Below the pieces are notes generated by a model that was given only the letters and a program-made list of their open reading frames with translations, was not told the DNA's origin and did not search any database. The translations under genes and the position numbers were made by a program. From PVC group bacterium (GTDB taxonomy: Bacteria > Omnitrophota > Gorgyraeia > B26-G9), in NCBI GenBank assembly GCA_024231215.1, contig JAAEQR010000195.1:142755-206754 (forward strand): a DNA stretch of 64,000 bases, read 5' to 3'. Positions 5,391 to 41,910 of this stretch are shown one piece after another (within the stretch, counting starts at the first letter, position 1; every line of letters starts with the position of its first letter).

Positions 5391-7504
<2,114 letters not shown>

Positions 7505-7557
7505 GCAAGAGAATCTTAATAATATAAAAGTGTATGTTTTATGCAGGAGGAGTTGTT

Positions 7558-8598: not shown

Positions 8599-8623
8599 AG
8601 GCGTTCACAAGACGGAGGATATA

Positions 8624-9940: not shown

Positions 9941-9958
9941 AGTGAAGGGTTTTATTAT

Positions 9959-13346: not shown

Positions 13347-13374
13347 ACAGCCTGCAAATATTAAAAAGGAAAAA

Positions 13375-14771: not shown

Positions 14772-14790
14772 GAGAAAGCACAAAAAATTC

Positions 14791-15864
14791 ATGTATATAA
14801 CTATAAACAATAGAAAGATTGGGAAAGGTAAGACTGTATATATTATTGCTGAGTTGTCGGCTAATCATAATCAAAGCATAGATAAAGCTATAAAGCTGAT
14901 CGAAGTAGCCAAGCAGGCAGGTGCTGATGCCGTAAAAATACAGACTTATACCGCTGATACCATGACCATTGATTCTGATAAAGAATGGTTTCAGATCAAA
15001 GGGACAATTTGGGAAGGGAATAATCTATATAAATTATATCAGGAGGCATTTACTCCTTGGGAATGGCAGTCACAGTTAAAACAAGTTAGCGAGAAGCTGG
15101 GGCTTGATTTCTTTTCTACCCCGTTTGATGTTACGGCAGTGGATTTTTTGCAGGGATTGAATGTCCCGGCATATAAGATTGCTTCATTTGAGCTTGTGGA
15201 TATCCCGCTGTTGAAAAAGATTGCGATTACTGGTAAGCCGGTGATTATGTCTACAGGAATGGCGACTCTAGAAGAAATAGACGAGGCAGTACAGACGCTT
15301 GTCTTAGCGGGTAATAAACAGCTGGTATTGCTCAAATGCACAAGCGCATATCCGGCAGCTGCCCAAGAGATGAACTTAAATGCCATTAGCTATATTTCAG
15401 AGAAATACAAAGTACCGGTTGGTCTTTCCGATCATACACTGGGCAGCGCTGTTGCTGTGGCTGCGGTTGCGTTAGGGGCATGTATTATTGAAAAACATCT
15501 CACCTTGACCCGCAAAGATCCGGGGCCTGATGCGACGTTTTCAATGGAACCCGCGGAATTTAAATCTATGGTTGATGATATAAGAATCGTAGAAAAGGCC
15601 TTGGGGAAAGTATCTTTTGAAGTGACGGAAAAGGAGAAAGAAAATCGTGTATTCCGCCGGTCATTGTTTGTAGTTAAAGATATTAAAAAAGGCGAGACTT
15701 TTTCTGCAAAAAATATACGTTCCATACGGCCGGGGCATGGATTGCACACAAGATATTTAGAGCAAATTTTAGACAAAAAAGCAGTCAAAGACATAGAAAA
15801 AGGGACGCCGCTGAACTGGAATTTAGTGGAAGGGTGTAATCGGGATGAGAAAGGCAGAGCATAA
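14791..15864 (+). CDS. pseI: Pseudaminic acid synthase (NeuB family, with C-terminal SAF/antifreeze-like domain)
   Basis: KTVYIIAELSANHNQSIDKAIKLIEVAKQAGADAVKIQTY...PAYKIASFEL...STGMATLEEIDEAV...GLSDHTLG. The C-terminal SAF domain is FSAKNIRSIRPGHGL. Confidence 0.85.
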   Translation: MYITINNRKIGKGKTVYIIAELSANHNQSIDKAIKLIEVAKQAGADAVKIQTYTADTMTIDSDKEWFQIKGTIWEGNNLYKLYQEAFTPWEWQSQLKQVSEKLGLDFFSTPFDVTAVDFLQGLNVPAYKIASFELVDIPLLKKIAITGKPVIMSTGMATLEEIDEAVQTLVLAGNKQLVLLKCTSAYPAAAQEMNLNAISYISEKYKVPVGLSDHTLGSAVAVAAVALGACIIEKHLTLTRKDPGPDATFSMEPAEFKSMVDDIRIVEKALGKVSFEVTEKEKENRVFRRSLFVVKDIKKGETFSAKNIRSIRPGHGLHTRYLEQILDKKAVKDIEKGTPLNWNLVEGCNRDEKGRA

Positions 15865-17917: not shown

Positions 17918-19747
17918 ATGGATAATAGGCTTTATATTTTAGATAAGAAATATCGAAATGTATTTATAACTCAGAATCGGGATAGTTGGAATGTTTGTCC
18001 TTTTGAATTTGATAAAGATAAAGATTTGGTTCTTTCTTTCGACTTTGCAGTTGTTAATGAAGTCAGACAGACAGGGGGGCAGGCTTATTATATTGATCAT
18101 CTGGTAAATAGCCAATTGATGGAAGAATATAATCACAAAATGTATGAATTTTTTGCTAAATGGCATAAAAATTTATTAGGCAAGGATATTTTTAGCTATA
18201 AAGGTATGGATGTTGCGAGTGCCTTTAGGATCGAAATATGGAATGATCTTACTTTTTATATGCGGATATTAGTCAATCTACATGAATTGTTCAAAAAAAT
18301 CAAGCCTGAGAATGTGTATGTGGGAATAGAGAATCAAATAGTTAGGGAGGTTATTGGGGGGCTTAATATTAAGGTTGTTTTCTGGAATGCGCCAGAAAAC
18401 AAAAACAGTACTGAATATTATTTCCCGATTTTTAGATGGATGGATGAAGCTCTGCACCCTGCTGATTTTAAACACAAGGTTAGGTTGTTTGTTTTTAAGA
18501 TATTTGGATCAATATCAAGTTTTATTAAAAAAATCAAGTTTAATAAAAATAAAAAGCAGATATATGTTGAGTGGTATCATCCGACAAATGACATAATTAG
18601 AGAGTTGAAAAGGGAAAATAAGGTTGAAATAGTTCGCAGTGGGTTTAATTGTATCCAGGATATGTTTAACAGTGTGTATTTACCGGCAGCTAGTTTCTCG
18701 GGCAGCAGATGCTATAAGCTTGAGACAGAGAAAATGCTTAAAAATTTTGATAAGGAAAAATGCGCGACATTAAGTATTGATGACATTGATATGAGTAATG
18801 AGATTTATAAGTTGATCATTAAAAGAGTTTCACCTTTAATCCCTAGATCTTTACTGACTGTAGACATTATAATGAAGTTTTTTGCAAAAAAAAAGCTGAG
18901 TCTTATGATTACGGTTGCAAGTATTGGGCTTATAAATAGATTGATGATTAATTACTGCATCAAGGCAGATATACCTGTGTATATGATTATTAACGGCTGG
19001 CTGGGCAATTCTTTTCTTGATGAAGCTAAAGATGGTACATGGATAAATTCTTATAGTGAATCCGTTAAGAAAAATTATTTTAAGGGTATGAAAAATGTTA
19101 TTTGTTTAGGAGATCCTAGGATGGATAAATATGTTAATTGTCTTAAAAAAAAATATAGTGACTATGAAAATCCGACTATTGGTATCGGGGCAGCCGGATT
19201 TACTAATGTTGATTTGAATTGTTATGTAGCAATTGAATGGGAGTTTTTAAATGATATAATGCAGGTTTGTAAAAAAATAATAACCTCTGGCAAAAAGATG
19301 AGTATTATAATAAAAGTTCGTCAAAACGGTTATATACAGCAATATCGGAATTTTCTGGACGAGTATTATTCTGATGTACCAGTCGTTCTTGAGGATTCGG
19401 TCTCGATAGAAGAAGTATATAAAAAAGCTGATTTTTTTATATCCATTTATTCTCAAAGCTTATTCGAGGCATCCTGTTATGGATTGCCGGTTTTGTATTA
19501 TAAAAATGATACTCAGTATTTTGACCCTCCCTTTGACGGTAATTCTGAGCTTATTACGGCGATGACTCCGGATGATCTCAGGCAAAAGATCGAGGCTTTT
19601 TACAATAAAGATGCAATGTATGATAAATTTAAAGAAAAGAAAGTAATGGAAAAGTATATAGGATTGTTAGATGGACAAAATCTAAAGCGAAATATGGATT
19701 TTATATATTCTTTTATAGAAGATAAAAAACAGGCTCAGGCAAATTGA
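17918..19747 (+). CDS. Hypothetical 609-aa protein; C-terminal half resembles GT-B-like TagF/KpsS-type transferases (candidate nonulosonic-acid or glycerol-phosphate transferase)
   Basis: No N-terminal match recognised. C-terminal ...ADFFISIYSQSLFEASCYGLPVLYYKNDTQYFDPPFDG... resembles the TagF-like / Capsule_synth ...DYSS..FD.A.L.KP.IFY.PD.. region. Confidence 0.3.
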   Translation: MDNRLYILDKKYRNVFITQNRDSWNVCPFEFDKDKDLVLSFDFAVVNEVRQTGGQAYYIDHLVNSQLMEEYNHKMYEFFAKWHKNLLGKDIFSYKGMDVASAFRIEIWNDLTFYMRILVNLHELFKKIKPENVYVGIENQIVREVIGGLNIKVVFWNAPENKNSTEYYFPIFRWMDEALHPADFKHKVRLFVFKIFGSISSFIKKIKFNKNKKQIYVEWYHPTNDIIRELKRENKVEIVRSGFNCIQDMFNSVYLPAASFSGSRCYKLETEKMLKNFDKEKCATLSIDDIDMSNEIYKLIIKRVSPLIPRSLLTVDIIMKFFAKKKLSLMITVASIGLINRLMINYCIKADIPVYMIINGWLGNSFLDEAKDGTWINSYSESVKKNYFKGMKNVICLGDPRMDKYVNCLKKKYSDYENPTIGIGAAGFTNVDLNCYVAIEWEFLNDIMQVCKKIITSGKKMSIIIKVRQNGYIQQYRNFLDEYYSDVPVVLEDSVSIEEVYKKADFFISIYSQSLFEASCYGLPVLYYKNDTQYFDPPFDGNSELITAMTPDDLRQKIEAFYNKDAMYDKFKEKKVMEKYIGLLDGQNLKRNMDFIYSFIEDKKQAQAN

Positions 19748-19786: not shown

Positions 19787-21307
19787 ATGTCAATTAAAAA
19801 AAAATCAGTTTTTAAAATTCTTACAAATATTGTGACTTTGCTTGTCGGGTTAGTGACTCAAGGCATTATACCGCGTACTTTAGGGCCGGCAGCATATGGT
19901 AATTTTTCTTTTCTCACTAATTTTTTCTTTTCTATATGCGGTTTTCTGAATTTAAATTCATCAACTGTTTTTTTTACTAAATTATCACAGAGACCTAAAG
20001 CAAAAGGACTGATTCGTTTTTATATGCATTTTCTGGCTTTCATTGCGCTTATAATTGCCATTTTTTTGTCCGGAAGCATTGTCTTTGGTCTAAAATCTGT
20101 TTTTTGGCCAGGGCAGCGTACTGTATTTATAATTTTAGCTGCGATTTTGGGTGTTTTCACATTTTATGATATGGTTTTTAAAGATATGTGTGATGCATAT
20201 GGGATTACTATAAAGGCTGAGCTTATTAAAATAGCTCTTAAGGTTATTGGATTGGGTCTAATCTTATTTTTGTTTTGGAAAAAGAGTCTTAATTTAGGAA
20301 CTTATTTTTCTTATCACATATTTATTCTTTTGTCAACGATAGGTTTTCTTATTTTCCTTATACATAAAAGCGGCCACTCATTGTTCAGCGGATTTATCGC
20401 TAAAAAAGATGAGTTTGAACCTTATTATAAAGAGTTTTCTAAAGTATGCTTTCCTTTATTCTTTTTTTTGTCTCTAGCTCTAATTGGACAGATATTTGAC
20501 CGCTGGTTTTTGCAGAAGTTTTCCGGAAGTGTTGATCAAGGGTATTATTCTTTTGCTTTTCAGGTAGGCAATCTTTGCATGCTTTTCACCAGTGCTATTA
20601 TGCCTCTTGTTTTACGGGAACAGTCGATACATTTCGGAAATATGGATTTTGAAAAATTAAGAAATGTTTTCTCACGTTCTATAAGCATTTTGGTAGCTTT
20701 AACTGCTTTTATATGTTGTTTTCTCGCTGTGGAATCTCAGACAGTTATTAATATCTTTGCTGGAAAGGCTTATTCTGCTGCTTTTGTACCCATGGTATTA
20801 ATGTGTTTGTTCCCAATTCATCGTACATACGGACAGTTGAATGGGAATTTCTTTTTTGCATCAGATAGAGTTCATATCTATCGAAATATAGGTATCGTAT
20901 TCACGCTTTTGGGAGTTGTTTTTACTTTTTTCTTACTGGGACCTCAAAAATATGGAGGGTTTAATCTGGGAGCAAATGGACTTTCTTTTAAAATGATGGG
21001 ATTGCAGGTGATCAGCGTTAATGTGCAGCTTTGGTTTAATGCAAAATACTTAAAATATTCTTTTAAAACACTTTTTTTGAATCAGATCGGGACGATAATT
21101 GTTTTTCTGGGCTTGTCGGGAATATCATCTGGCTTTGCAAGAGCGATATTCCCAAATTTAGCTCCAGTCATCCATTTTTGTTTAAGCGGGACAGTATACG
21201 TTATAATATGTTTTGTGGTTTTTAACTGTTGGCCGGAAACTATGGCTTTAAAGAAAACTGATGTTAATCAGTTAAATATATTTATCAAAGAGAAACTTGG
21301 CAAGTAA
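19787..21307 (+). CDS. MOP-superfamily polysaccharide flippase (Wzx-like), multi-pass membrane protein
   Basis: 506 aa, about 12-14 hydrophobic segments. N-terminal ...ILTNIVTLLVGLVTQGIIPRTLGPAAYGNFSF... typical of Wzx / polysaccharide biosynthesis protein family. Confidence 0.65.
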   Translation: MSIKKKSVFKILTNIVTLLVGLVTQGIIPRTLGPAAYGNFSFLTNFFFSICGFLNLNSSTVFFTKLSQRPKAKGLIRFYMHFLAFIALIIAIFLSGSIVFGLKSVFWPGQRTVFIILAAILGVFTFYDMVFKDMCDAYGITIKAELIKIALKVIGLGLILFLFWKKSLNLGTYFSYHIFILLSTIGFLIFLIHKSGHSLFSGFIAKKDEFEPYYKEFSKVCFPLFFFLSLALIGQIFDRWFLQKFSGSVDQGYYSFAFQVGNLCMLFTSAIMPLVLREQSIHFGNMDFEKLRNVFSRSISILVALTAFICCFLAVESQTVINIFAGKAYSAAFVPMVLMCLFPIHRTYGQLNGNFFFASDRVHIYRNIGIVFTLLGVVFTFFLLGPQKYGGFNLGANGLSFKMMGLQVISVNVQLWFNAKYLKYSFKTLFLNQIGTIIVFLGLSGISSGFARAIFPNLAPVIHFCLSGTVYVIICFVVFNCWPETMALKKTDVNQLNIFIKEKLGK

Positions 21308-21524: not shown

Positions 21525-22208
21525 ATGGGTAGAGTGATGGTGTTAATTGATATACTAAAAAATCTGAAAAAGTTAATTCGATTACTTATCGATTTAAGAA
21601 AAACACGAAAAAAATTCCCCACATGTCAGATTTATAACAGCACCATTATCGATTCTAACTCAGTATTAGGGGGATATAATTTGATATGTGAAAATGTAAT
21701 AGCTATAAATTCCTATATAGGAGAGCATACTATTGTGCAAAAAAATACTACAATATTTAATTCAGAGATTGGTAAATTTTGCGGTATTGCTGCAAGATGT
21801 AGTGTGGGACAAGGAAGACATCAAACAACCTTTGTAAGTTCTCATCCAGCTTTTCATAGCAATCAAGAAATCCTGGTAAAATCTTTTCATGAAGAATCTG
21901 ATAAGGTAATATCAAAGCGTACCTGTATTGGACATGATACTTATATTGGAGAAAATGCTATGATTATGGACGGCATTAAAGTTGGCATAGGGGCGGTAAT
22001 AGGAATGGGGGCTGTTGTAATAGAAGATGTGCCAGATTATGCAATTGTTTTTGGGAATCCCGCTCGAATATATAAGTATCGTTTTGAAAAAGAGATAATA
22101 AAAAAACTTTTAGAAACTAAATGGTGGGATATGCCTGTAGAATTTTTTGAAAAAAATGGAAAATGTTTTAATAATCCCGAAACATTTTTTAAATGTCTAG
22201 ATTTGTGA
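21525..22208 (+). CDS. Hexapeptide-repeat (left-handed beta-helix) acyltransferase, xenobiotic/sugar O-acetyltransferase-like
   Basis: Hexapeptide repeats [39 protein letters not shown], then FGNPARI. The start could also be the ATG at 21537. Confidence 0.65.
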
Positions 22209-24077: not shown

Positions 24078-24089
24078 TAGGAGGTTATT

Positions 24090-24314: not shown

Positions 24315-24344
24315 ATACAGAAGGATAATAGCAGTCTGGGATAT

Positions 24345-25253: not shown

Positions 25254-25266
25254 AGGTTCATTTATT

Positions 25267-26732: not shown

Positions 26733-27326
26733 ATGATGAAAATGAAAAAACTTAGATTTCAAAGGTTGTATGGCCTGATAAAAGCAGGTATTTTTTTTAT
26801 TTGCAATAAGGGTAAGTATAAGAAACTGGAAATTGGTGCTTTTGTAATCAAACCTTTGCGTTTAAACGGCACCCCACATATGTCTATTTTAAAAGGTGCT
26901 GTTGTTCAGAAATATACCTGGCTGTTTGCTTTGCAGATAGATGAACATGTTCCGGAATTAGTTATAAAAGAGGGGTGCTCGATAGGAGATTTTAACCATA
27001 TTGCTGCAGTCAGGAAAGTTATAATTGGGAAAAATGTTTTAACTGCTAATAGAGTTTATATTTCTGATAATATTCATTGCTATAAAGATGTAAATACACC
27101 TATTATGCATCAGCCCGTTGAATTTAAGTCAGAGGTTGCTATCGGGGATGGTTCCTGGATTGGTGAGAATGTTTGTGTTATCGGCGCTAAGATAGGAAAA
27201 AATTGTGTTATCGGTGCAAATTCTGTTGTAACAAATGATATCCCCGATTACTGTGTCGCTGTGGGTGCCCCGGCCAAGATAATAAAGAGATTTAATGCTG
27301 CAACAAAAGAATGGAAGAAGGTCTAA
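26733..27326 (+). CDS. Hexapeptide-repeat acyltransferase (WbbJ/LacA/MAT-like)
   Basis: IGKNVLTANRVYISD..., IGDGSWIGENVCVIGAKIGKNCVIGANSVV, VAVGAPAKIIKRF. Paralogous to the 40142 ORF. Confidence 0.7.
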   Translation: MMKMKKLRFQRLYGLIKAGIFFICNKGKYKKLEIGAFVIKPLRLNGTPHMSILKGAVVQKYTWLFALQIDEHVPELVIKEGCSIGDFNHIAAVRKVIIGKNVLTANRVYISDNIHCYKDVNTPIMHQPVEFKSEVAIGDGSWIGENVCVIGAKIGKNCVIGANSVVTNDIPDYCVAVGAPAKIIKRFNAATKEWKKV

Positions 27327-27334
27327 AATAGATT

Positions 27335-28132
27335 ATGAAAAGTTGGTTAGCAGAACAATATAAGTCTAAAGCTTCACAATTTGATGCGGAGGTCATTAGC
27401 CGTTATCCTGATTCACAAAAGATATTCAGCGATCCGCATGAATTTTATAAGGGCCTTGTCGGTGAATGGAATTATCTTGATGCTGTCAAGGCTTTAGACT
27501 GGGATAAATATATTAAAAAGGATGCGGTTATTATTGATATCGGCGGCGGGACAGGATGGCTCAGCGCATATATCTCAAGTTTTGAGCAGGTAAAAGAAAT
27601 AAGCCTTATTGATTCAAGCCGATTTTTTTTAGAAAAAATGGTTCCCGAAATGATAAAGCTTATGAAGGGAGTTCCGGAAAAAATCAAGATAGTGGAAGGA
27701 CTTTTTTCGCCATTACTTCTTGATGATGAATCGATTGATGTTGCTTTTATATGTTCATCAATGCATCATGCCGATAATATTTCTAAGTTATTAATTGAAA
27801 TAAAAAGAGTTTTAAAAAAAGGCGGCTATCTTTTTATCTTAAATGAAACCCCATATAATAATTTCTCGTATTTAGGGGCAATTATAAAACAATTTTTAAT
27901 TATTGTCAGAGACATTATTTTTCACCGTTTCAAGGCTGTCTCGACATCAATTGCATCTAACGGATTTTTGTATGATCCGTATTTGAATGATAAGGCATAT
28001 CCCTTCTGGTACTGGGAAAAAGCTATTAAAGAAAGCGGGTTTTTGCTTGCTGATGTGGTAAACACCGGATTATCTACTCTCAAACAAAAAAAAGGGATAA
28101 TGCTAAGGCATTTTATCTGTAGGAAAAATTGA
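27335..28132 (+). CDS. Class I SAM-dependent methyltransferase
   Basis: VIIDIGGGTGWLSAYI (motif I), FICSSMHHADN..., LKKGGYLFI. Confidence 0.65.
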   Translation: MKSWLAEQYKSKASQFDAEVISRYPDSQKIFSDPHEFYKGLVGEWNYLDAVKALDWDKYIKKDAVIIDIGGGTGWLSAYISSFEQVKEISLIDSSRFFLEKMVPEMIKLMKGVPEKIKIVEGLFSPLLLDDESIDVAFICSSMHHADNISKLLIEIKRVLKKGGYLFILNETPYNNFSYLGAIIKQFLIIVRDIIFHRFKAVSTSIASNGFLYDPYLNDKAYPFWYWEKAIKESGFLLADVVNTGLSTLKQKKGIMLRHFICRKN

Positions 28133-28134: not shown

Positions 28135-29622
28135 ATGTTACGTATAGGGCTTATCTCATTCCTCACTAATAACTTGAGTATTCGGTTGCTTTCAGCTTAT
28201 TTAAAACAAAATGGAGTTGAAGTTATATCTATTTTTTGTCCGCCTGATTTTAATGAAAAAAAAGCCAAAGATATCATGGATATTCTAAAAGAGCACGATG
28301 TAATGCTTGCCGGAATAACACTGGTTACAGATGATTATAAAAAAGCTGTTGTGCTTACTCAAATGATTAAAAGCCGTCTTAATATCCCTGTGATTTGGGG
28401 CGGAGCACATCCAAGTGTATTGCCGCAGGAGTCTCTAAGGCATGCGGATATGGTCTGTATCGGAGAAGGTGAAGAAGCATTATTAGAATTGATCAAGAGT
28501 TTGTCTTTAGGGGAGAGGAACCAAAGCATAAAGAATATTTGGTTTAAGGATGGAGACAATATAGTAAAAAATGAGTTAAGGGATTTAACCGAAGACTTAG
28601 ATGAATACCCTTTTCCTGACATGGATTGGAATTCACAGATAGTTATAACAGAAAACGGCGCTGAGAAAATGCACGAAGATCACTTCCAGGGAGAGTATAA
28701 TATTATCACCTCTCGTGGCTGCCCTTATTCATGTTGTTATTGTTACAATAGTTACCGAAGGCAGCAGTATAAAGGAAAAGGTAAGTATTTACGCATGCGC
28801 ACTATTGGTAATGTGATTGATGAGTTGATAATAGCCAAGGCTCAGCTTAAGAATGTTCATTTGATCAATTTTTGGGACGATAGTTTTATGGCGAGGAGTA
28901 ATAGTGATTTTTTGTTATTCAAAGAACTGTATTCTAAGAATATAAATTTGTCTTTTTTTGCTTTGGCTGAACCGATGGCTTTTAATGAAGCGAAAGTCAG
29001 TATCTTAAGAGAATGCGGACTGGAAATGTTGCAAATAGGTATACAGACTGGCAGTGAAAGGGTAAACCGGGAAGTTTACAATCGCCGGGTAACTAGAGAT
29101 CAGACTCTGGCAACTGCGCAGGTTATTAGTCGCTTAGGGATCAAGGTTATTTATGATGTTATTTTTAACAATCCTTATGAAAACGAAGATGATTTACGAG
29201 AGACCGTAAGGCTTTTTGCAAATTTCCCGCGACCTTTTGCTTTGCAAGGATTTAACCTGATTTTTTATCCCGGGACTGAAATGGCGAAAAGGGCGTTGAA
29301 GGATGGTTTTATATCGCAAAAGGGAAATCAGGAGGATTTTTCTACAATACAAGGTCGAAAAAATTCGCCGCTTTCTTTCAAGATGAAACCGGTTATTAGC
29401 GGAAGATTTTACAGAGTTAATTATGATAGTCGGAGTAAGAAGTATTATAATTTAGTTATTTTGCTTACTTCCTATTTATGGGTTCCTCGATGGATTATTG
29501 AATTTTTTGCTAAGTCCAAAAATTTTTTGAAGTTAGTAATGTTGAATCTTTTTATCCATGCATATTCATTTCTATCTCGGGTAAAAAATAAAAAGTTTTT
29601 TGTGGATGGGAATAATGTCTGA
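28135..29622 (+). CDS. B12-binding-domain radical SAM enzyme (class B radical SAM; candidate methylcobalamin-dependent C-methyltransferase)
   Basis: N-terminal B12-binding-like region (LRIGLISFL..., ...DVMLAGITLVTDDY...). Radical SAM core ITSRGCPYSCCYCYN. About 495 aa, typical of this class. Confidence 0.65.
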   Translation: MLRIGLISFLTNNLSIRLLSAYLKQNGVEVISIFCPPDFNEKKAKDIMDILKEHDVMLAGITLVTDDYKKAVVLTQMIKSRLNIPVIWGGAHPSVLPQESLRHADMVCIGEGEEALLELIKSLSLGERNQSIKNIWFKDGDNIVKNELRDLTEDLDEYPFPDMDWNSQIVITENGAEKMHEDHFQGEYNIITSRGCPYSCCYCYNSYRRQQYKGKGKYLRMRTIGNVIDELIIAKAQLKNVHLINFWDDSFMARSNSDFLLFKELYSKNINLSFFALAEPMAFNEAKVSILRECGLEMLQIGIQTGSERVNREVYNRRVTRDQTLATAQVISRLGIKVIYDVIFNNPYENEDDLRETVRLFANFPRPFALQGFNLIFYPGTEMAKRALKDGFISQKGNQEDFSTIQGRKNSPLSFKMKPVISGRFYRVNYDSRSKKYYNLVILLTSYLWVPRWIIEFFAKSKNFLKLVMLNLFIHAYSFLSRVKNKKFFVDGNNV

Positions 29623-30592
29623 ATTAGTAAGTGTAATTATTACAAGTTATAATCATGGTGAGTATTTAAAAGAGCGTTTGGATACTATCCTGGGACAGAC
29701 TTATAAAAATATTGAAATTATTGTAGTAGATGATTGTTCGATAGATAATAGCCTTGAGGTATTAAAGGGTTATGCTGGTTATTCGAATGTGAAGGTGATT
29801 GCACTTAAAGAAAATGTCGGATATGCCCTTGCTTGCCACAAGGGAGTAGGCGAAAGTAAGGGAAATTTTATTATTTTTGCTGAATCTGACGACTTTAGTG
29901 AACCTGAGCAGATAGAAATGCTCTTTGACGTAATAGTAAAAGATGAACGTATCGGAGTTGCCTGGTGCAGAAGTAATATCGTAGATGAAAATGGAAAAGT
30001 GCTAGGTGATGATTATTCAGGACGAGAAAAATCCTTTCGTCTGATGTGCAAAGAGAGCACATTTATAAGAAAAGAATATATGCAGAGGCTTTTTTTGTCT
30101 TCTTGCGTTATTCCGAATATGAGCGCTGCGCTTTTAAGAAGGTCTTTTTTTGAGCAAACAGGGGGACTTTCTCCTAATTATAAAGCTTGTGCGGATTGGG
30201 ATTTTTGGAATAGGATGGCAATGGTTTGTGATTTTTTTTATATTACAAAAACTTTAAATAATTTTAGAACACATGGGCAAACCGTAAGGAATACTTTTGA
30301 ATCAAATCTTCAGGCACAAGAGATTCTTAAACTTACAGCTGATGCCAGCAATACGGTTTATTCAACGAGAAAAGGGCGATTAAAGTCATGTTTTAATTTG
30401 GGCTATATTGGGGCATATATGATTATTTATAGTTTAGGGAATAGGTTTAAAAATGCTATTTTTATTTATAAGGAAGGCAGTCGATATGTAGGTTTTTTTA
30501 TTTTTTTTCTACTGTTTGGGTTCTTAAAAAATTTCTGGAAATACATAGGTATGGTTTTTAATAGACAAGTATTTTTAAAAGGTTGGTTTTAA
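29615..30592 (+). CDS. Glycosyltransferase family 2
   Basis: VSVIITSYNHGEYLKERLDTILGQTYKNIEIIVVDDCSIDNS... and the DxD region FAESDDF. Confidence 0.75.
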   Translation: MSELVSVIITSYNHGEYLKERLDTILGQTYKNIEIIVVDDCSIDNSLEVLKGYAGYSNVKVIALKENVGYALACHKGVGESKGNFIIFAESDDFSEPEQIEMLFDVIVKDERIGVAWCRSNIVDENGKVLGDDYSGREKSFRLMCKESTFIRKEYMQRLFLSSCVIPNMSAALLRRSFFEQTGGLSPNYKACADWDFWNRMAMVCDFFYITKTLNNFRTHGQTVRNTFESNLQAQEILKLTADASNTVYSTRKGRLKSCFNLGYIGAYMIIYSLGNRFKNAIFIYKEGSRYVGFFIFFLLFGFLKNFWKYIGMVFNRQVFLKGWF

Positions 30593-30594
30593 CA

Positions 30595-32706: not shown

Positions 32707-34484
32707 AGAATGGGCCGTTAGTTTCAATAATAACACCGTCATATAACTCGGCACGTTTTTTATCTGAAGCAGTAGCGTCTGTGTTGAATCAGACTTATCG
32801 GAATTGGGAAATGCTGATTGTCGATGACGGTTCTACGGATGACACTTTATTGCTGGCAAGAAGATATGAAGAAAAAGACAAACGGATCAAGGTGTTTGCA
32901 TTAGATCCTAGCAGTGGCGGGCCTGCGATACCAAGAAACTATGGAATGCGGCAAGCGAAGGGCAGTTATATCGCTTTTTTGGATTCCGATGATATGTGGT
33001 TTGCGGAAAAACTTCAAAAGCAGGTTGATTTGATGGAGAAGAGCAAAGATGTTTTTTTATTATATTCGCAGTGTATTGTCGAAAAAGACGGCAGGCAGTG
33101 TAGTATAAAGCCGGCAAATCCGAAGAAGGGTTGTATTTTTAATGATCTTTTATACGGAAATATCATTGCTTGTAATACAGTGATGATAAGAAATAATAAG
33201 GATGATAATGCCTATTTTTTCGATGAGGATAAAAAGCTTGTTGCCGTTGAGGACTATGCTATGTGGTTATCAATTGCCTCTAAAGAACAAATATCTTTTA
33301 TAAAGGAGCCTCTTGCTGTTTATCGAATTCATTTAGGAGGTATATCGTCTAGTGCATTTGTAAATTTTAAAAAAAGCGGCTTAGTTATTAGGAGATTTAG
33401 GCATTTAGTCTCTAAATTGACTTGGCTTAAAGTTCAAATAAATTTTTATATGAAACTTGGCTTTGTGGGGATAATGGTTTCTTTAATAAAAATTAAAAAT
33501 TTTATTATGAAAAATGCACCAGATAAGCAGAAGATAGCAGCGCTTTGCAAATTGTCATTTATTATTGCGACTGTTGATAGAGATGAGCAATTACAGCAAT
33601 GTATTAACTCAATTGAGGAAGCACATCAATTTAGGAAGGATATTTCAATTGAAATATTAATAATTATTCAAAACGCAAAGAAAAATAAAAATATCAAAAT
33701 ACGCTATCCGGAATTTACTTATATCTATCAAATAAATGATCGGGGATTATCTGTATCCAGAAATTTTGCTATAGAAAAAAGCACAGGGGATTATCTTGTG
33801 TTTTTAGACGATGATGCGACAGTAAAAATGGATTTTATTGACGAATTGACTAAAAAAATCTTAGCATATCCGAAAATTAACGCTTTTTGCGGGAAACTTT
33901 TAGACATTGATCAGCATACTCCTTTTTCAGTTCTTTTTAAAAATAACAGTATTAAAAAATTACGCAGGATAGATTACCAGTATTTTATGGGCAGCGCTCA
34001 TGTGTTAAGCCGGAGAGTTATTGAAAAGATTGGTATGTATGACAGCCGTTTTGGAGTAGGTTCAGCATGTTATGGTGGAAGCGAAGAAACGGACATGTTT
34101 TTTAGATTAAAGGCTCAGAGAGAACTAGTTTTATATTTACCCGGCTTAATTTTTTATCATCCAATCCCAGAAATGCGGCCTGAGAATGTTTATGATTATT
34201 CGTATAGCATTGGAGCAGTATTTGTAAAAAATGCGGCAAAGGATAGGCTCTTTTTTTTCATATATTTTGTGGTGGCGTGTAAAATTATATTAAAAGCACT
34301 AATACGGATATTACAGCAGGTAATTTTAGCCATATTCAATATACAGTATAAAAAAGAATATAAGTATAGTTTTGTTCTTAAGGGGCTTTTAGCTGGTATA
34401 ATTAACTACATTAGAGGTAAAAAACAAACTGTTGAAACATTGAAGGGTAAATTTAATTCTCAAGATGGAAAAACGAGGGCATAA
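32703..34484 (+). CDS. Two-domain glycosyltransferase (tandem GT2 modules)
   Basis: Module 1: VSIITPSYNSARFLSEAVASVLNQTYRNWEMLIVDDGSTDDT, FLDSDD. Module 2: LSFIIATVDRDEQL...FLDDDA. Confidence 0.75.
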   Translation: MKNGPLVSIITPSYNSARFLSEAVASVLNQTYRNWEMLIVDDGSTDDTLLLARRYEEKDKRIKVFALDPSSGGPAIPRNYGMRQAKGSYIAFLDSDDMWFAEKLQKQVDLMEKSKDVFLLYSQCIVEKDGRQCSIKPANPKKGCIFNDLLYGNIIACNTVMIRNNKDDNAYFFDEDKKLVAVEDYAMWLSIASKEQISFIKEPLAVYRIHLGGISSSAFVNFKKSGLVIRRFRHLVSKLTWLKVQINFYMKLGFVGIMVSLIKIKNFIMKNAPDKQKIAALCKLSFIIATVDRDEQLQQCINSIEEAHQFRKDISIEILIIIQNAKKNKNIKIRYPEFTYIYQINDRGLSVSRNFAIEKSTGDYLVFLDDDATVKMDFIDELTKKILAYPKINAFCGKLLDIDQHTPFSVLFKNNSIKKLRRIDYQYFMGSAHVLSRRVIEKIGMYDSRFGVGSACYGGSEETDMFFRLKAQRELVLYLPGLIFYHPIPEMRPENVYDYSYSIGAVFVKNAAKDRLFFFIYFVVACKIILKALIRILQQVILAIFNIQYKKEYKYSFVLKGLLAGIINYIRGKKQTVETLKGKFNSQDGKTRA

Positions 34485-34485
34485 A

Positions 34486-35736
34486 ATGTACACAGAGATA
34501 AATAAATGTAGGATTTGTGGTAATACTAATCTGGAGCAGGTGCTTGATTTAGGAGAGCAGATGTTGACTGGGGTATTCCCATGCGAGAAGGGTGAGAAGC
34601 TTACAGTCGGTCCTTTACGACTGGTAAAATGTATGGGAGCAGATGATGTTTGCGGGTTATTACAGCTTGAGCATTCTTATGATTCAGAAGAGATGTATGG
34701 GGAAAACTATGGTTATCGTTCCGGCTTAAATTCCAGCATGGTTGCGCATTTGCATGATAAGGTGAAAAAAATCATTGAACAGGTCGAGCTGAATAAAGGT
34801 GATCTGATCATTGATATTGGCAGTAATGATAGTACTTTGCTTCAAGCTTATCCCAGAGAAGGATTGGACCTTGTCGGTATGGACCCTACCGGTGAAAAAT
34901 TTAAGAAATATTACCCTGAACATATAAAATTAATTCCTGAGTTTTTCTCCTCAGAATCTTTTAAGAAGAATTTTGGGGAAAGAAAAGCAAAAGTTGTTAC
35001 TTCTATTGCGATGTTTTATGATCTAGAGCGACCGCTTGATTTTGTTAGGCAAGTGCATGAAATATTAGCTGATGACGGTATTTGGGTGTTTGAACAGAGC
35101 TATCTGCCCACAATGTTGGAAATGAATGCATATGATACTGTTTGCCATGAACATTTAGAGTACTACTGTTTGAAGCAAATAAAATGGATGGCTGAACAAC
35201 TTGAATTTAAAATTGTTGATGTAGAATTAAATGAAATTAATGGAGGGAGCTTTTCAGTTACTATTGCCAAGTCGACTTCTGCGTATCCTTGTAATACGAA
35301 ATTTATTGAAAAGATATTGCAGGAAGAAGCGGCCAAGGAATTGCATACTATAAAGCCCTATGATGAATTTAAAAAAAGAGTTTTAGCTAGTCGAAGTGAA
35401 TTGATGGGGTTTATTCAAAAAGTGAAAAGTGAAAATAAATGCTTATTAGGTTACGGTGCTTCTACTAAAGGTAATGTGATTTTGCAATTTTGTGATTTAG
35501 GAACAGCAGACATCCCGGCTATTGCGGAAGTAAATGTAGATAAGTATGGTTGTTATACCCCAAATACCAATATTCCTATTATATCCGAAGAAGATGTAAA
35601 AAAAATGAATCCTGATTATTTGTTGGTTTTTCCTTGGCATTTTAAAGATAATATTATTGACCGCGAAACAGAGTATTTGAATTCAGGTGGGAAATTAGTA
35701 TTTCCTTTGCCTCATTTGGAGGTTGTGCAGAAATGA
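34486..35736 (+). CDS. TylCIII/Coq-like sugar C-methyltransferase family (NDP-hexose 3-C-methyltransferase-like; N-terminal Zn-ribbon CxxC plus SAM MT plus C-methyltransferase C-terminal domain)
   Basis: MYTEINKCRICGNTNLEQVLDLGEQMLTGVFP (zinc-binding N-terminus), LIIDIGSNDSTLL (motif I), C-terminal ...LGYGASTKGNVILQ... as in the C-methyltransferase C-terminal domain. Confidence 0.65.
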   Translation: MYTEINKCRICGNTNLEQVLDLGEQMLTGVFPCEKGEKLTVGPLRLVKCMGADDVCGLLQLEHSYDSEEMYGENYGYRSGLNSSMVAHLHDKVKKIIEQVELNKGDLIIDIGSNDSTLLQAYPREGLDLVGMDPTGEKFKKYYPEHIKLIPEFFSSESFKKNFGERKAKVVTSIAMFYDLERPLDFVRQVHEILADDGIWVFEQSYLPTMLEMNAYDTVCHEHLEYYCLKQIKWMAEQLEFKIVDVELNEINGGSFSVTIAKSTSAYPCNTKFIEKILQEEAAKELHTIKPYDEFKKRVLASRSELMGFIQKVKSENKCLLGYGASTKGNVILQFCDLGTADIPAIAEVNVDKYGCYTPNTNIPIISEEDVKKMNPDYLLVFPWHFKDNIIDRETEYLNSGGKLVFPLPHLEVVQK

Positions 35737-36680
35737 AAAAAGCAGTAATTGTCGGATGTAATGGACAAGATGGTAAAGTACTCAATAAATACTTACTTGA
35801 AAAAGAGTATATAATTGTAGGGATAGACAGAGAATTTATTAGTTGCTCTGACAACCTTAGTTGTAATTCTGTTGATATTATAAATTCAAAGGATGTGTAT
35901 GATCTGATAAGTAATTTTCAGCCGGATGAAGTTTATTATTTAGCAGCATTCCATCACTCATCGGAAGATGCGACTATTGAAAATAATACATTACTTCAAA
36001 AAAGCTATGATGTCCAGGTGCGGGGATTTGCTAATTTCCTTGAGGGAATAAGGCAGTATTCTCCGCAAACTAGGATATTCTATGCTGCTTCTTCTCACAT
36101 TTTTGGCAAACCTGAAAGTGAGTTGCAAGATGAAAATACTGCAATAAATCCGACCAATATCTATGGCATTACTAAAGCTGCGGGGTTGTTCATGTGTCGT
36201 TTGTACAGAAGTAGTTATTCTGTTTTTGCATCAGCCGGTATATTATATAATCATGAATCGTTGTTCCGCGAAGAAAAATTTATTTCAAAGAAAATAATCA
36301 ATAGTGCTGTAAAAATTAAAAATAAAAGTCAGGAGAAAATTGTTATTGGCAATCTAAAGCATGAAGCTGATTGGGGTTATGCTCCGGATTATGTCAGGGC
36401 GATGCATGCAATGCTTAATATTGAAAAAGCCGATGATTTTATTGTTGCTACCGGGAAGAAGCATAGTGTTCTTGATTTTATTAAGATAGCATTTGGTTAT
36501 TTAGATTTAGATTGGCAGTTATATGTTGAAGAAAATAACTTAATAATTTCAAAAGATAATAATTGTCTCGTAGGGAATTCGCAAAAGTTGCGGGAGGTTA
36601 CGGGATGGCAGCCATCGGTTGATTTTAAAGAAATGATACAGAAGATGATTGATGAAACAACTTTAGCTGAGGAGGTTTGA
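35733..36680 (+). CDS. Short GDP-mannose 4,6-dehydratase-like NAD(P)-dependent sugar dehydratase (divergent)
   Basis: KAVIVGCNGQDGKVLNKYLLEKEY..., YGITKAAG (YxxxK), ILYNHESLFREEKFISKKI...NLKHEADWGYAPDYVRAMHAMLN parallels Gmd LYNHESPRRG...FVTRKIT...NLDAKRDWGHAKDYVEAMW. Confidence 0.55.
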   Translation: MKKAVIVGCNGQDGKVLNKYLLEKEYIIVGIDREFISCSDNLSCNSVDIINSKDVYDLISNFQPDEVYYLAAFHHSSEDATIENNTLLQKSYDVQVRGFANFLEGIRQYSPQTRIFYAASSHIFGKPESELQDENTAINPTNIYGITKAAGLFMCRLYRSSYSVFASAGILYNHESLFREEKFISKKIINSAVKIKNKSQEKIVIGNLKHEADWGYAPDYVRAMHAMLNIEKADDFIVATGKKHSVLDFIKIAFGYLDLDWQLYVEENNLIISKDNNCLVGNSQKLREVTGWQPSVDFKEMIQKMIDETTLAEEV

Positions 36681-40741: not shown

Positions 40742-40747
40742 ATATTT

Positions 40748-41884
40748 ATGAATAAAAATAGAAATATTTTAATTTCTGGAGGAGCAGGCTTTATTGGAAG
40801 TAGCTTGGCTCTTTATTTAAAGTCATTAGATTATAATGTGTCTGTCTTGGATAATTTAAGCCAACAGATTCATGGCGAATGTCCTGATAATTCAGATTTA
40901 TATCAAAATATTAAAGGTGAAGTTAAATTTATATTAGGGGATGTTAGAGTAAAGGAAGATTGGATTAAAGCTATTGATGGGCAGGATGTGATAATTCACT
41001 TAGCAGCAGAGACAGGAACAGGGCAGTCAATGTATGAGATTAGTAAGTATGTTGAAGTAAATGTTGGGGGCACTGCTGCATTATGGGATGTTTTAGCCAA
41101 TAATAAACATTCAATAAAAAAAGTGGTTTTAGCATCGTCAAGGGCTGTGTATGGAGAAGGGGCATATCAATGCCAAGTGGGCTGTGGTTTGGTTGCTGTG
41201 AAGTCACGCATGAAAGCGGAGCTTCAGAAAGGGCATTGGGAGCCTATTTGCTTGAAATGTGGCGGCTTGGTGGAACCTATAGCAACTTCTGAAACAGCAA
41301 CTCCAAGACCTGTTTCTTTGTATGCTTGTACAAAATTGGCTCAAGAACAAATGTCGTTAACTATTGGGGAGGCGCAAGGAATTTCGGTTGGTGTTTTGCG
41401 TTTTCAAAATGTATATGGACCGGGTCAGTCCTTGCAAAATCCTTATACGGGTATTTTATCTATTTTTTCTAATCAATTGCGTCAGAATTTACCAGTAAAT
41501 ATTTATGAGGATGGGGCTGAAAGCAGAGATTTTGTTTTCATTCAAGATGTTGTGCAGGCTTGTAAGCGAACGATGGAGCTCAGAGATTTTAATATTGTGA
41601 TTAATGTTGGGAGTGGACGACCGACGACTGTTTTGGAATTAGCTCATGTTTTAAAACAGCGCTGGAGAAGTAAGTCTTTGGTTACGGTGACAGGTGCATT
41701 TAGAGTGGGTGATATTCGGCATAACTGGGCAGACCTGACGCAGTTTTATCGGCTATGGCCAGATTGTAAGATGACGACTCTAGATGCTGGACTAGTGTCA
41801 TTTATAGAATGGGCCAGAGGACAGTTAGTTTTTGAGGATAAAACTCATAATGCAGAACAAGAATTAAAGTCTCGCAATTTATAA
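40748..41884 (+). CDS. NAD-dependent epimerase/dehydratase (extended SDR) carrying an inserted four-cysteine segment
   Basis: ILISGGAGFIGSSL (GxxGxxG), YACTK (YxxxK), with the insert ...YQCQVGCGLVAVKSRMKAELQKGHWEPICLKCGG... between them. Confidence 0.7.
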   Translation: MNKNRNILISGGAGFIGSSLALYLKSLDYNVSVLDNLSQQIHGECPDNSDLYQNIKGEVKFILGDVRVKEDWIKAIDGQDVIIHLAAETGTGQSMYEISKYVEVNVGGTAALWDVLANNKHSIKKVVLASSRAVYGEGAYQCQVGCGLVAVKSRMKAELQKGHWEPICLKCGGLVEPIATSETATPRPVSLYACTKLAQEQMSLTIGEAQGISVGVLRFQNVYGPGQSLQNPYTGILSIFSNQLRQNLPVNIYEDGAESRDFVFIQDVVQACKRTMELRDFNIVINVGSGRPTTVLELAHVLKQRWRSKSLVTVTGAFRVGDIRHNWADLTQFYRLWPDCKMTTLDAGLVSFIEWARGQLVFEDKTHNAEQELKSRNL

Positions 41885-41910
41885 AAAATGAATTAATAAG
41901 GGAGTGAAGT

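What the first reader, a model, noticed from the sequence alone, without database searches (positions are those of the whole stretch)
28135..29622. B12-binding radical SAM (class B) flanked by SAM methyltransferases; together with the TylCIII-like gene (34486-35736) this gives two routes to C-methylated sugars
The B12-rSAM class contains the known sugar and phosphonate C-methyltransferases acting on unactivated carbons (GenK, Fom3 types). The core motif is CPYSCCYC rather than the strict CxxxCxxC, which is slightly atypical. This gene sits between two class I MTs, a GT2 and another MT. Further downstream is a TylCIII-like NDP-hexose C-methyltransferase next to a Gmd-like dehydratase. The locus therefore seems to produce more than one branched-chain or methylated sugar.
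Basis: partly seen in the sequence, partly recalled or inferred. Interest (0 to 1): 0.6.

Follow-up and report, generated by a model that had tools for sequence, protein, structure and literature searches.

The report
B12 radical SAM in glycan cassette
This is a real cobalamin-type radical SAM gene from an uncharacterised but widely conserved enzyme group, and it sits in a cell-surface sugar gene cassette in the exact slot that a sugar 4-epimerase fills in sister cassettes; C-methylation of a sugar is the likeliest chemistry but is unproven.

Summary
The gene (28135-29622, +) is real. It has an N-terminal cobalamin-type Rossmann domain and a radical SAM barrel, and its AlphaFold model matches TsrM, OxsB, TokK, MgmA and AprD4. 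The extra Cys is not conserved.

The protein reaches no curated family cut-off (HpnJ, BchE, PhpK, KedN5 and others). It belongs to a tight unnamed clade (45-60% identity, about 490 aa) found across many mostly anaerobic phyla.

The new result concerns context. The clade sits in a conserved cassette downstream of nonulosonic-acid genes (here PseB, PseC, PseI): GT-B protein, two hexapeptide acyltransferases, the rSAM, then an overlapping GT2. In an unbiased scan for GT2 orthologues, the gene directly upstream was this rSAM in 16 loci and a UDP-sugar 4-epimerase-like SDR in 37. None had both within about 7 kb.

The flanking methyltransferases and the FkbH/ACP genes are optional extras. The TylCIII-like gene is a true full-length homologue of sugar 3-C-methyltransferases.

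Sugar C-methylation is the most likely chemistry (about 0.5). Neither fold nor sequence can exclude non-methylating radical chemistry. Interest is moderate.

The parts
28135..29622 (+). B12-binding radical SAM gene (495 aa from the ATG; a TTG at 28129 is an alternative start)
   Evidence: ORF. Pfam PF02310 and PF04055. 100% identical to NCBI MCP4650703.1. AF2 model with pLDDT 89 and pTM 0.87.
28135..28509 (+). N-terminal five-stranded Rossmann (cobalamin-type) domain, aa 1-125
   Evidence: PF02310. Strands 3-8, 29-34, 58-62, 86-89 and 106-108 in the model. 21 invariant residues, mean conservation 0.66 against 0.72 for the rSAM core.
28327..28335 (+). T65-D66-D67 loop after strand 3. It aligns with the residues that lie under the corrin in OxsB (N186, about V64) and TokK (W76, at D66).
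   Evidence: Translation. T65 and D66 invariant. phmmer alignments to 5ul2 and 7kdx. Role of this loop described in PMC13331322. The alignment is weak, so the register is uncertain by 1-2 residues.
28396..28410 (+). WGGAH motif after strand 4 (W88, G89, G90 and H92 invariant), aligned to 'AGGPH' of TokK
28720..28743 (+). CPYSCCYC, a canonical CxxxCxxC [4Fe-4S]/SAM cluster motif (C196, C200, C203)
   Evidence: Invariance.
28690..29229 (+). Radical SAM partial TIM barrel, aa 186-365
   Evidence: PF04055. Model secondary structure. Foldseek matches.
29600..30592 (+). GT2 glycosyltransferase (GT2_330) overlapping the rSAM stop codon; the conserved downstream partner
   Evidence: PF00535 at 108 bits. 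Orthologue at 44-55% identity directly downstream of the rSAM in 26 loci, with gaps of -16 to +31 nt.
27335..28132 (+). Class I SAM methyltransferase (MT265); an optional accessory gene
   Evidence: Orthologues occur in only a few rSAM-type loci (L011, L039, L052) and also in epimerase-type loci (L058, L064, L080, L095, L108).
26733..27326 (+). WbbJ-like hexapeptide acyltransferase (AcT197); cassette member
   Evidence: Orthologues at 46-66% identity in both cassette types.
21525..22208 (+). XAT-type hexapeptide acyltransferase (AcT227); cassette member
   Evidence: Orthologues in both cassette types.
17918..19747 (+). 609-aa protein with no Pfam domain and a GT-B fold; cassette member and candidate nonulosonic-acid transferase (inferred)
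   Evidence: No family hit. 268 homologues, all unnamed. AF2 model with pLDDT 86. Foldseek matches to UDP-GlcNAc 2-epimerases, TarL, BshA and MurG.
19787..21307 (+). Wzx-type flippase
   Evidence: Weak PF01943 hit. 12 predicted TM segments. Orthologues present in the cassettes.
40748..41884 (+). UDP-sugar 4-epimerase-like SDR (Epim378) with a Cys-rich insert. Its orthologues fill the rSAM's slot in sister cassettes.
   Evidence: PDB sequence hits MoeE5 at 1.3e-34, 6wjb, UDP-glucose 4-epimerase and WbpP. Orthologues at 43-51% identity directly upstream of GT2_330 orthologues in 39 loci.
5394..15864 (+). Pseudaminic acid biosynthesis block: PseB, PseC, PseF/PseG fusion and PseI, plus accessory formyltransferase-like, aminotransferase, AKR, WbqC and PIG-L genes
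   Evidence: PseB 536 bits against 408, PseC 480 against 424, PseI 504 against 340. Pfam.
34465..35736 (+). TylCIII/TcaB9-family NDP-hexose 3-C-methyltransferase homologue (ATG at 34486 is an alternative start)
   Evidence: PF08421 at 59.8 bits and PF08484 at 164 bits. Full-length hits to 4rv9, 3ndi and 5t64.
35733..36680 (+). Gmd-family SDR with the catalytic Glu replaced by His

Best explanation
The gene encodes a class B radical SAM enzyme: a cobalamin-type Rossmann domain plus a [4Fe-4S]/SAM barrel. It belongs to an uncharacterised orthologous clade dedicated to tailoring a cell-surface glycan.

The gene is translationally coupled to a GT2 glycosyltransferase. Both lie in a conserved cassette (GT-B protein, two hexapeptide acyltransferases, rSAM, GT2) that follows nonulosonic-acid biosynthesis genes in a Wzx/Wzy-type locus. 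Here those genes make pseudaminic acid. In the sister lineage of the same cassette, a UDP-sugar 4-epimerase-like SDR occupies the identical slot. The rSAM is therefore the step that sets the identity of one sugar of the repeat unit, most probably the sugar handled by the adjacent GT2.

Most likely mechanism (inferred). Reductive cleavage of SAM at the C196/C200/C203 cluster gives a 5'-deoxyadenosyl radical. The radical abstracts H from an unactivated sugar carbon of a nucleotide-linked or undecaprenyl-linked substrate. Methylcobalamin then transfers a methyl radical to give a C-methyl-branched sugar, as in GenK, GenD1 and MoeK5.

Shown: the architecture, the fold, the canonical cluster motif, membership of a distinct clade, the conserved cassette, and the rSAM/epimerase alternation. 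Inferred: cobalamin binding, the substrate, and methyl transfer.
For: Architecture and fold: PF02310 and PF04055 above threshold. The AF2 model has pLDDT 89. It matches TsrM at E = 1e-19 and TM 0.68, and also OxsB, MgmA, AprD4 and TokK over the full length.

The Rossmann domain is as constrained as the core, with 21 invariant residues. It shares the GG-x-H and GEGE motifs with TokK.

The clade has more than 100 clusters at 45-60% identity and about 490 aa. It occurs in Patescibacteria, Desulfobacterota-type, Nitrospirota, Omnitrophota, Planctomycetota, Verrucomicrobiota and Bacteroidota MAGs, and in Formivibrio citricus DSM 6150.

Cassette synteny appears. In the GT2-seeded metagenome scan, the gene directly upstream of the GT2 was the rSAM in 16 loci, the Epim378 orthologue in 37, something else in 10, and unreadable (contig end) in 17. 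No locus had both within its flanks (about ±7-10 kb), and gaps to the GT2 were -16 to +31 nt.

Wzx, which is usually specific to the repeat unit, differs most between the two cassette types: 27% identity between them against 44-48% within.

The FkbH/ACP block and the methyltransferases are absent from most rSAM cassettes, so the conserved role does not depend on them.

Methylases are the most common function among Cbl-dependent rSAM enzymes (PMC11659888 abstract). The sugar-acting members GenK, GenD1, Fms7 and MoeK5 are all C-methylases (PMC9204698). Relatives are recurrently fused to class I methyltransferase domains: P0120 and P0259.
Against: No curated methylase family is matched: PhpK 60 bits against 600, KedN5 54 against 700, HpnR 34 against 650, TsrM-type 26 against 500.

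The best profile hits are to non-methylating or unknown families: ladderane-type at 106 bits, HpnJ at 103 and MJ_1487 at 98. The best PDB profile hit for the core is AprD4, a cobalamin-free sugar diol dehydratase, at 1.8e-11.

Non-methylating class B enzymes cannot be told apart from methylases by structure (PMC12931638).

An epimerase in the equivalent slot would fit a stereochemical or rearrangement role as well as it fits methylation.

All cassette genes co-diverge between the two cassette types. The GT2 clade split therefore shows one ancient swap and not GT2-specific co-adaptation.

Cobalamin binding and the substrate were not tested. No C-methyl sugar is known from any organism that carries the cassette.
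Confidence: 0.5

Rival explanations
1. A non-methylating cobalamin-dependent radical SAM enzyme that rearranges or inverts the sugar. It could contract the ring to a cyclitol or furanose-like unit as proposed for HpnJ and OxsB, or carry out a radical epimerisation at the carbon that the SDR epimerase inverts in sister cassettes.
For: HpnJ is the second-best curated profile hit, at 103 bits over aa 43-401. HpnJ is proposed to act on a lipid-linked glucosamine (PMC9204698). A 4-epimerase-like SDR fills the same slot in 37 of 63 informative cassettes. Non-methylases lie inside the main class B group without distinguishing features (PMC12931638). An invariant Cys108 precedes the GEGE motif, and OxsB has a Cys at the aligned position.
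Against: The HpnJ score is far below its 577.6-bit cut-off, and identity to an annotated HpnJ is only about 24%. No hopanoid genes are present. The carbohydrate radical SAM epimerases I recall from memory (e.g. NeoN) have no B12-binding domain. An NAD-dependent epimerase works anaerobically, so replacing one with a costly B12/Fe-S enzyme for the same product has no evident advantage (inference).
Confidence: 0.22
2. An AprD4-like, cobalamin-independent radical SAM 1,2-diol dehydratase. It would deoxygenate a sugar, with a separate reductase completing the step, and the N-terminal Rossmann domain would be structural only.
For: AprD4 (6fd2) is the best PDB hit to the family profile, at 1.8e-11 over aa 188-400. 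It is also a full-length fold match with TM 0.63. AprD4 acts on an aminoglycoside sugar.
Against: NCBIfam AprD4 scores 34 bits against a cut-off of 500. The sequence hit covers only the rSAM core. The N-terminal domain aligns instead with the Cbl-binding domains of TokK and OxsB and keeps 21 invariant residues, including the GG-x-H and GEGE motifs. No conserved partner reductase lies next to the gene in most cassettes.
Confidence: 0.1
3. The enzyme modifies something other than the GT2's sugar. Candidates are the pseudaminic/legionaminic acid residue or its N-acyl group, or the acyl chain built by the FkbH/ACP/MaoC-SDR genes of this window.
For: The cassette always accompanies nonulosonic-acid genes: CTP_transf_3, NeuB and PseB/C. 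The window carries an FkbH-ACP acyl module close by. Other B12-rSAM families sit inside the nonulosonic-acid gene blocks.
Against: The FkbH/ACP module is absent from all other rSAM cassettes examined. Nonulosonic-acid genes are shared by rSAM-type and epimerase-type cassettes, so they do not explain the alternation. The gene is tightly coupled to the GT2, not to the nonulosonic-acid genes.
Confidence: 0.12
4. One reading: a GenK/Fom3-type sugar C-methylase with an unusual cluster motif that works together with the flanking class I methyltransferases.
For: The class B architecture, adjacent methyltransferases in this window, and fusions of relatives to class I methyltransferase domains.
Against: The motif is canonical. 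The flanking methyltransferases are absent from most orthologous cassettes and occur in rSAM-free cassettes too. The fused methyltransferase domain of P0120 is not orthologous to MT265 or MT332. No curated methylase family is matched.
Confidence: 0.06

Closest known systems
GenK, GenD1 and Fms7 (aminoglycoside) and MoeK5 (moenomycin): cobalamin-dependent radical SAM sugar C-methyltransferases
   Same: Same N-terminal B12-type Rossmann domain plus radical SAM core. They act on sugar carbons inside glycosylation pathways (PMC9204698). In the moenomycin pathway a UDP-GlcA 4-epimerase (MoeE5) and a B12-rSAM (MoeK5) act on the same sugar unit (my own knowledge). MoeE5 is the best PDB hit of the window's Epim378.
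   Different: Those enzymes tailor antibiotics in actinomycetes. This clade sits in Wzx/Wzy surface-glycan loci of mostly anaerobic, uncultured phyla. Its product is unknown.
HpnJ (hopanoid cyclitol-ether formation)
   Same: One of the two best curated profile hits, at 103 bits. It is a B12-rSAM proposed to act on a lipid-anchored amino sugar made by a GT2 (PMC9204698; the GT2 HpnI is from my own knowledge).
   Different: The score is far below the 577.6-bit cut-off and identity is about 24%. There is no hopanoid context. HpnJ is a proposed ring-contracting enzyme, not a methylase.
TsrM, TokK and OxsB (class 1 Cbl-dependent radical SAM enzymes with solved structures)
   Same: Full-length fold matches: E = 1e-19 to 8e-14, TM 0.60-0.68. 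No His ligand motif, consistent with base-off, His-off binding (PMC13331322).
   Different: 12-19% identity. Their C-terminal domains and substrates differ (tryptophan, carbapenam, dAMP). Here the loop under the corrin is an invariant T-D-D, where those enzymes have R69, W76 and N186.
AprD4 (radical SAM sugar 1,2-diol dehydratase)
   Same: Best PDB match to the family profile in the rSAM core. Its substrate is a sugar.
   Different: AprD4 does not use cobalamin. Its N-terminal domain does not align by sequence. The curated model scores 34 bits against a cut-off of 500.
TcaB9, MtmC, KijD1 and TylCIII (for the second gene, 34465-35736)
   Same: Full-length homology at E = 1.5e-51, with the same three-domain Pfam pattern.
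   Different: No NCBIfam equivalog is matched. The substrate nucleotide and sugar are unknown. The neighbouring Gmd-family gene lacks the catalytic Glu.

Membership tests
Radical SAM superfamily | CxxxCxxC motif ligating the [4Fe-4S] cluster | tested here: met
   CPYSCCYC at 28720-28743. C196, C200 and C203 are invariant in 26 homologues.
Radical SAM superfamily | PF04055 above the gathering score, and a partial TIM-barrel fold | tested here: met
   77.3 bits against 29.5. Model and Foldseek matches to many rSAM structures.
Class B / class 1 cobalamin-dependent radical SAM | N-terminal Rossmann-type B12-binding domain | tested here: met
   PF02310 at 62.8 bits against 32.1. Five-stranded Rossmann fold in the model. 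Full-length fold matches to TsrM, OxsB and TokK.
Class B / class 1 cobalamin-dependent radical SAM | Base-off, not His-on binding (no DxHxxG His loop); a residue from the loop after strand 3 lies under the cobalt | tested here: inconclusive
   There is no His in the loop after strand 1 (sequence). The invariant T65-D66 loop aligns with OxsB N186 and TokK W76 (PMC13331322). This fits the class but does not prove binding.
Class B / class 1 cobalamin-dependent radical SAM | Actually binds and uses cobalamin | not testable with these tools
   Needs purified protein. AprD4 shows that a B12-like domain can be cofactor-free.
Class B methylases (GenK, Fom3, PhpK, KedN5, HpnR, TsrM, MgmA types) | Sequence membership of a curated methylase family | tested here: not met
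   PhpK 60 bits against 600, KedN5 54 against 700, Sden_1168 51 against 575, RiPP C-methyltransferase 44 against 282, MgmA-type 43 against 360, HpnR 34 against 650, TsrM-type 26 against 500. No curated model exists for GenK, GenD1, MoeK5 or Fom3.
Class B methylases (GenK, Fom3, PhpK, KedN5, HpnR, TsrM, MgmA types) | Transfers a methyl group from SAM through methylcobalamin | not testable with these tools
   Biochemical assay required.
HpnJ | TIGR03471 equivalog score and hopanoid gene context | tested here: not met
   103 bits against 577.6. About 24% identity to an annotated hpnJ. No hopanoid genes in the window.
BchE | TIGR02026 equivalog score | tested here: not met
   61 bits against 481.
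AprD4 diol dehydratase | NF033070 equivalog score | tested here: not met
   34 bits against 500.
TylCIII/TcaB9 NDP-hexose 3-C-methyltransferases (gene 34465-35736) | N-terminal zinc-binding domain, class I methyltransferase domain and C-terminal PF08484 domain, with full-length alignment to solved members | tested here: met
   PF08421 at 59.8 bits against 31.3, PF13489 at 48 bits, PF08484 at 164 against 23.5. 4rv9 at 1.5e-51 over aa 12-421.
GDP-mannose 4,6-dehydratase (gene 35733-36680) | TIGR01472 equivalog score and the catalytic T-x-E triad element | tested here: not met
   203.7 bits against 415. 'SSH' aligns with Gmd 'TSE'. The Y-xxx-K and NHES motifs are kept.

The most novel reading that the evidence does not exclude
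The clade is the first cobalamin-dependent radical enzyme of Wzx/Wzy-type surface-polysaccharide assembly. It performs chemistry that replaces a C4 epimerisation: either a MoeK5-like C-methyl branch at the carbon the SDR would invert, or a non-methylating radical inversion or ring rearrangement. Many anaerobic phyla would then decorate nonulosonic-acid-containing glycans with a sugar type not yet described in polysaccharides, and their surface antigen structure would depend on vitamin B12.
Probability: 0.25. Interest if true: 0.75.

Novelty: new member of a known kind. Interest (0 to 1): 0.45.

Why it matters
In the papers I searched and read, class B radical SAM enzymes that act on sugars are described only from antibiotic pathways (gentamicin, fortimicin, moenomycin). 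I found no description of one in O-antigen or capsule-type loci.

This clade is conserved across many phyla and has a clean natural comparison: the same cassette carries either the rSAM or a 4-epimerase. That makes its function directly testable. Compare the glycans of a cultured rSAM-type carrier (Formivibrio citricus DSM 6150) and an epimerase-type carrier (Rhodoferax lithotrophicus).

If it is a C-methylase, it predicts branched-chain sugars in the surface glycans of anaerobes. It would also tie surface antigen structure to cobalamin supply.

Tried and rejected
- Four literature searches for B12-rSAM in O-antigen, capsule or nonulosonic-acid contexts found nothing relevant.
- The moenomycin pathway papers (PMC2747051, PMC2987538, PMC3438383, DOI 10.1021/bi901018q) are not held. 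MoeK5 and MoeE5 chemistry is therefore cited partly from memory, and no MoeK5, GenK or Fom3 sequence could be compared.
- The look-up of the Formivibrio protein P0100 failed. Its locus was read from L009 instead.
- I tested whether GT2_330 is a GtrB/ArnC-like polyprenyl-phosphate sugar synthase by hydropathy. It has only a borderline C-terminal hydrophobic segment, so I made no claim.
- I tested whether the methyltransferase domain fused in P0120 is the orthologue of MT265 or MT332. It is not.
- I tested whether the GT2 specifically co-adapts with its partner. Rejected, because all cassette genes co-diverge to a similar degree.
- The plasmid database holds no orthologue, only HpnJ-level relatives at 24-27% identity.
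- Acyl-chain methylation linked to FkbH/ACP was rejected as the conserved role, because that module is unique to this window.
Full report
**Observation.** The ORF at 28129 (TTG) or 28135 (ATG) to 29622 on the + strand is real. It is identical to NCBI protein MCP4650703.1 from a 'PVC group bacterium' MAG contig of 506 kb. Pfam finds a B12-binding domain (PF02310, 62.8 bits against a cut-off of 32.1) followed by a Radical_SAM domain (PF04055, 77.3 against 29.5).

Bases 28720-28743 translate to CPYSCCYC. That is C-PYS-C-CY-C, which is the strict CxxxCxxC. C196, C200 and C203 are invariant in 26 homologues, and the extra Cys at position 201 is variable.

**Fold.** An AlphaFold2 model built on 26 homologues is confident (pLDDT 89, pTM 0.87). 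It shows a five-stranded Rossmann domain (aa 1-125), a partial TIM barrel (aa 186-365) and a helical C-terminal region. Foldseek against the PDB returns full-length matches only to class B-type enzymes. TsrM scores E = 1e-19 with TM 0.68, followed by OxsB, MgmA, AprD4 and TokK. Ordinary rSAM barrels come far behind.

[quoted passage not shown] In this family that loop is an invariant T65-D66(-D67). Weak phmmer alignments place it opposite OxsB N186 and TokK W76. The Rossmann domain is nearly as conserved as the catalytic core, with 21 invariant residues including WGGAH and GEGE. This argues against a vestigial domain.

**Family.** No curated NCBIfam model is reached. The best scores are ladderane-type B12 rSAM (106 against 360), HpnJ (103 against 578), MJ_1487 (98 against 251), BchE (61 against 481) and PhpK (60 against 600). 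Every methylase model scores lower still. Against PDB sequences the family profile hits AprD4 in the core (1.8e-11), then CysS and TokK at about 5e-6.

The protein nevertheless has more than 100 close relatives at 45-60% identity and about 490 aa, none carrying a specific functional name. The wider superfamily neighbourhood holds 2258 50%-identity representatives at E ≤ 1e-30. In genomes the clade occurs in Patescibacteria, delta-proteobacterial, Nitrospirota, Omnitrophota, Planctomycetales, Verrucomicrobiota and Bacteroidota MAGs, and in the cultured anaerobe Formivibrio citricus DSM 6150.

A 2026 review states that non-methylating class B enzymes, OxsB excepted, lie within the main group and show no structural features that distinguish them from alkylating enzymes (PMC12931638). 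Homology therefore cannot settle 'methylase'.

**Context.** The window is one large Wzx/Wzy-type glycan locus.
- 5394-15864 encodes pseudaminic acid synthesis. PseB, PseC and PseI all score above their equivalog cut-offs, and there is a PseF/PseG fusion.
- Two rSAM/SPASM genes follow.
- Then come a 609-aa protein with no Pfam domain, Wzx, an XAT-type acyltransferase (AcT227), an FkbH-ACP-methyltransferase-MaoC/SDR module, a WbbJ-like acyltransferase (AcT197), MT265, the rSAM and a GT2 (GT2_330).

I compared ORFs of 25 loci that encode rSAM relatives with the window proteins (20 from the genome scan, 5 from protein look-ups). The order GT-B protein, AcT227, AcT197, rSAM, GT2_330 recurs, usually with overlapping genes and regardless of phylum. 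Nonulosonic-acid genes such as CTP_transf_3 lie just upstream. The 609-aa protein has a GT-B fold: model pLDDT 86, with matches to UDP-GlcNAc 2-epimerases, TarL, BshA and MurG. The FkbH/ACP module is unique to this window. MT265 and MT332 are present in only a few cassettes.

**The alternation.** Homologues of the GT-B protein at about 40% identity, for example in Rhodoferax lithotrophicus, lie in the same cassette without the rSAM. Between AcT197 and the GT2_330 orthologue there is instead an orthologue (47-50% identity) of the window's own gene 40748-41884. That gene is a UDP-sugar 4-epimerase-like SDR. Its best PDB hits are MoeE5, 6wjb, UDP-glucose 4-epimerase and WbpP. It has SSRAVYG and YxxxK motifs and a Cys-rich insert.

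To remove ascertainment bias I scanned metagenome contigs with an alignment of GT2_330 orthologues from both cassette types.

| Gene directly upstream of the GT2 | Loci (of 80) |
|---|---|
| Epimerase (Epim378) orthologue | 37 |
| rSAM orthologue | 16 |
| Something else | 10 |
| Unreadable (contig end) | 17 |

No locus carried both within its flanks (about ±7-10 kb), and either gene abuts or overlaps the GT2 with gaps of -16 to +31 nt. With the earlier loci the totals are 26 rSAM and 39 epimerase.

In an NJ tree all 25 rSAM-linked GT2s form one pure clade. However, AcT197, AcT227, the GT-B protein and Wzx all diverge between the two cassette types as well, and Wzx diverges most: 27% identity between types against 44-48% within. 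The split therefore shows one ancient exchange within a cassette that is inherited as a unit. It does not show GT2-specific co-adaptation.

The window is the only locus seen with both genes. The epimerase lies 11 kb downstream in a second triad: WbbJ-like acyltransferase, epimerase, a different GT2.

**Interpretation.** The rSAM is a dedicated glycan-tailoring enzyme. Its role is independent of the flanking methyltransferases and of the FkbH/ACP module. It occupies the position of the enzyme that sets the identity of a sugar used next to the GT2.

C-methylation of an unactivated sugar carbon is the best single guess (about 0.5). Methylation is the most common reaction of the class. All characterised sugar-acting members (GenK, GenD1, Fms7, MoeK5) are C-methylases. 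Relatives are repeatedly fused to class I methyltransferase domains. There is also a suggestive parallel with moenomycin, where a UDP-GlcA 4-epimerase (MoeE5, the best structural homologue of Epim378) and a B12-rSAM (MoeK5) act on the same sugar (my own knowledge). MoeK5, Fom3 and HpnJ co-cluster in a similarity network (PMC9204698).

The rivals remain open:
- HpnJ- or OxsB-like rearrangement, or radical epimerisation (about 0.22).
- Action on the nonulosonic acid or its acyl group (about 0.12).
- AprD4-like dehydration (about 0.1).

**The second half of the finding.** The gene at 34465-35736 is a full-length homologue of MtmC, TcaB9 and KijD1 (E = 1.5e-51 to 4e-45) with the expected Pfam domains. 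A conventional 3-C-methyl branched sugar is therefore plausible. Its neighbour is a Gmd-family SDR that scores below the equivalog cut-off and has His where Gmd has its catalytic Glu. It may be a ketoreductase or a variant rather than the dehydratase.

**Verdict.** The gene is a new, uncharacterised member of the class B radical SAM kind. Its conserved cassette context and its alternation with an epimerase are new and make its function directly testable. Interest is moderate.

Noticed in passing
window 15865-16869 and 16866-17879: Two tandem radical SAM/SPASM genes sit directly after PseI. An orthologue of the second (74-77% identity) lies next to the GT-B gene in L011 and L046. The locus therefore contains three radical SAM enzymes.
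   Followed up: partly
window 22296-26706: An FkbH-domain protein (TIGR01686, 300 bits), a 74-aa ACP (24090-24314), a class I methyltransferase and a MaoC-dehydratase/SDR fusion are inserted between the two acyltransferases of the conserved cassette. The module is absent from every other cassette examined. It suggests a glyceryl-ACP-derived acyl decoration, possibly on pseudaminic acid.
   Followed up: partly
window 17918-19747 (also L026 10001-11827): A protein family of about 600 aa with no Pfam or NCBIfam match (268 homologues, all 'hypothetical') has a GT-B fold. In the contexts examined it lies close to Wzx and downstream of the nonulosonic-acid cytidylyltransferase. It is a candidate nonulosonic-acid transferase.
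   Followed up: partly
window 40142-42825: A second triad runs WbbJ-like acyltransferase, 4-epimerase-like SDR, GT2. The SDR carries a Cys-rich insert of about 45 aa (CQVGC...CLKC) that splits the Pfam match in two, possibly a zinc ribbon.
   Followed up: partly
window 35733-36680: A Gmd-family SDR has 'AASSHIFG' aligned to Gmd 'QASTSEMFG', so the catalytic Glu is replaced by His. It scores below the gmd equivalog cut-off.
   Followed up: partly
L006 445-1914; L027 755-2167; the JGI contig carrying P0085: A second, unrelated B12-binding radical SAM family lies inside the nonulosonic-acid gene block of both rSAM-type and epimerase-type cassettes. Its two members are 60% identical to each other and 21-26% identical to the target. 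Several further distant B12-rSAM genes occur in these glycan loci (L013, L021, L025, L081).
   Followed up: partly
window 30583-31581: The class I methyltransferase MT332 has two predicted C-terminal transmembrane segments, which suggests it acts at the membrane on a lipid-linked glycan.
   Followed up: no
window 10861-12654: A 597-aa fusion of a cytidylyltransferase (PseF/KdsB-like) with a PseG-like UDP-sugar hydrolase domain.
   Followed up: no
window 1-64000: GC skew is positive in every 2-kb bin (0.085 to 0.33), and almost all long ORFs are on the + strand. The whole window appears to be co-directional leading-strand sequence.
   Followed up: no
L001, L003, L009, L026, L027: Carbamoyltransferase genes (L001, L003, L009, L027) and asparagine-synthase-like amidotransferase genes (L009, L026) recur beside the cassette. 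The same enzyme types decorate the uronic-acid unit of moenomycin (my own knowledge). Neither was found among the window genes scanned (about 0.7-47 kb).
   Followed up: no
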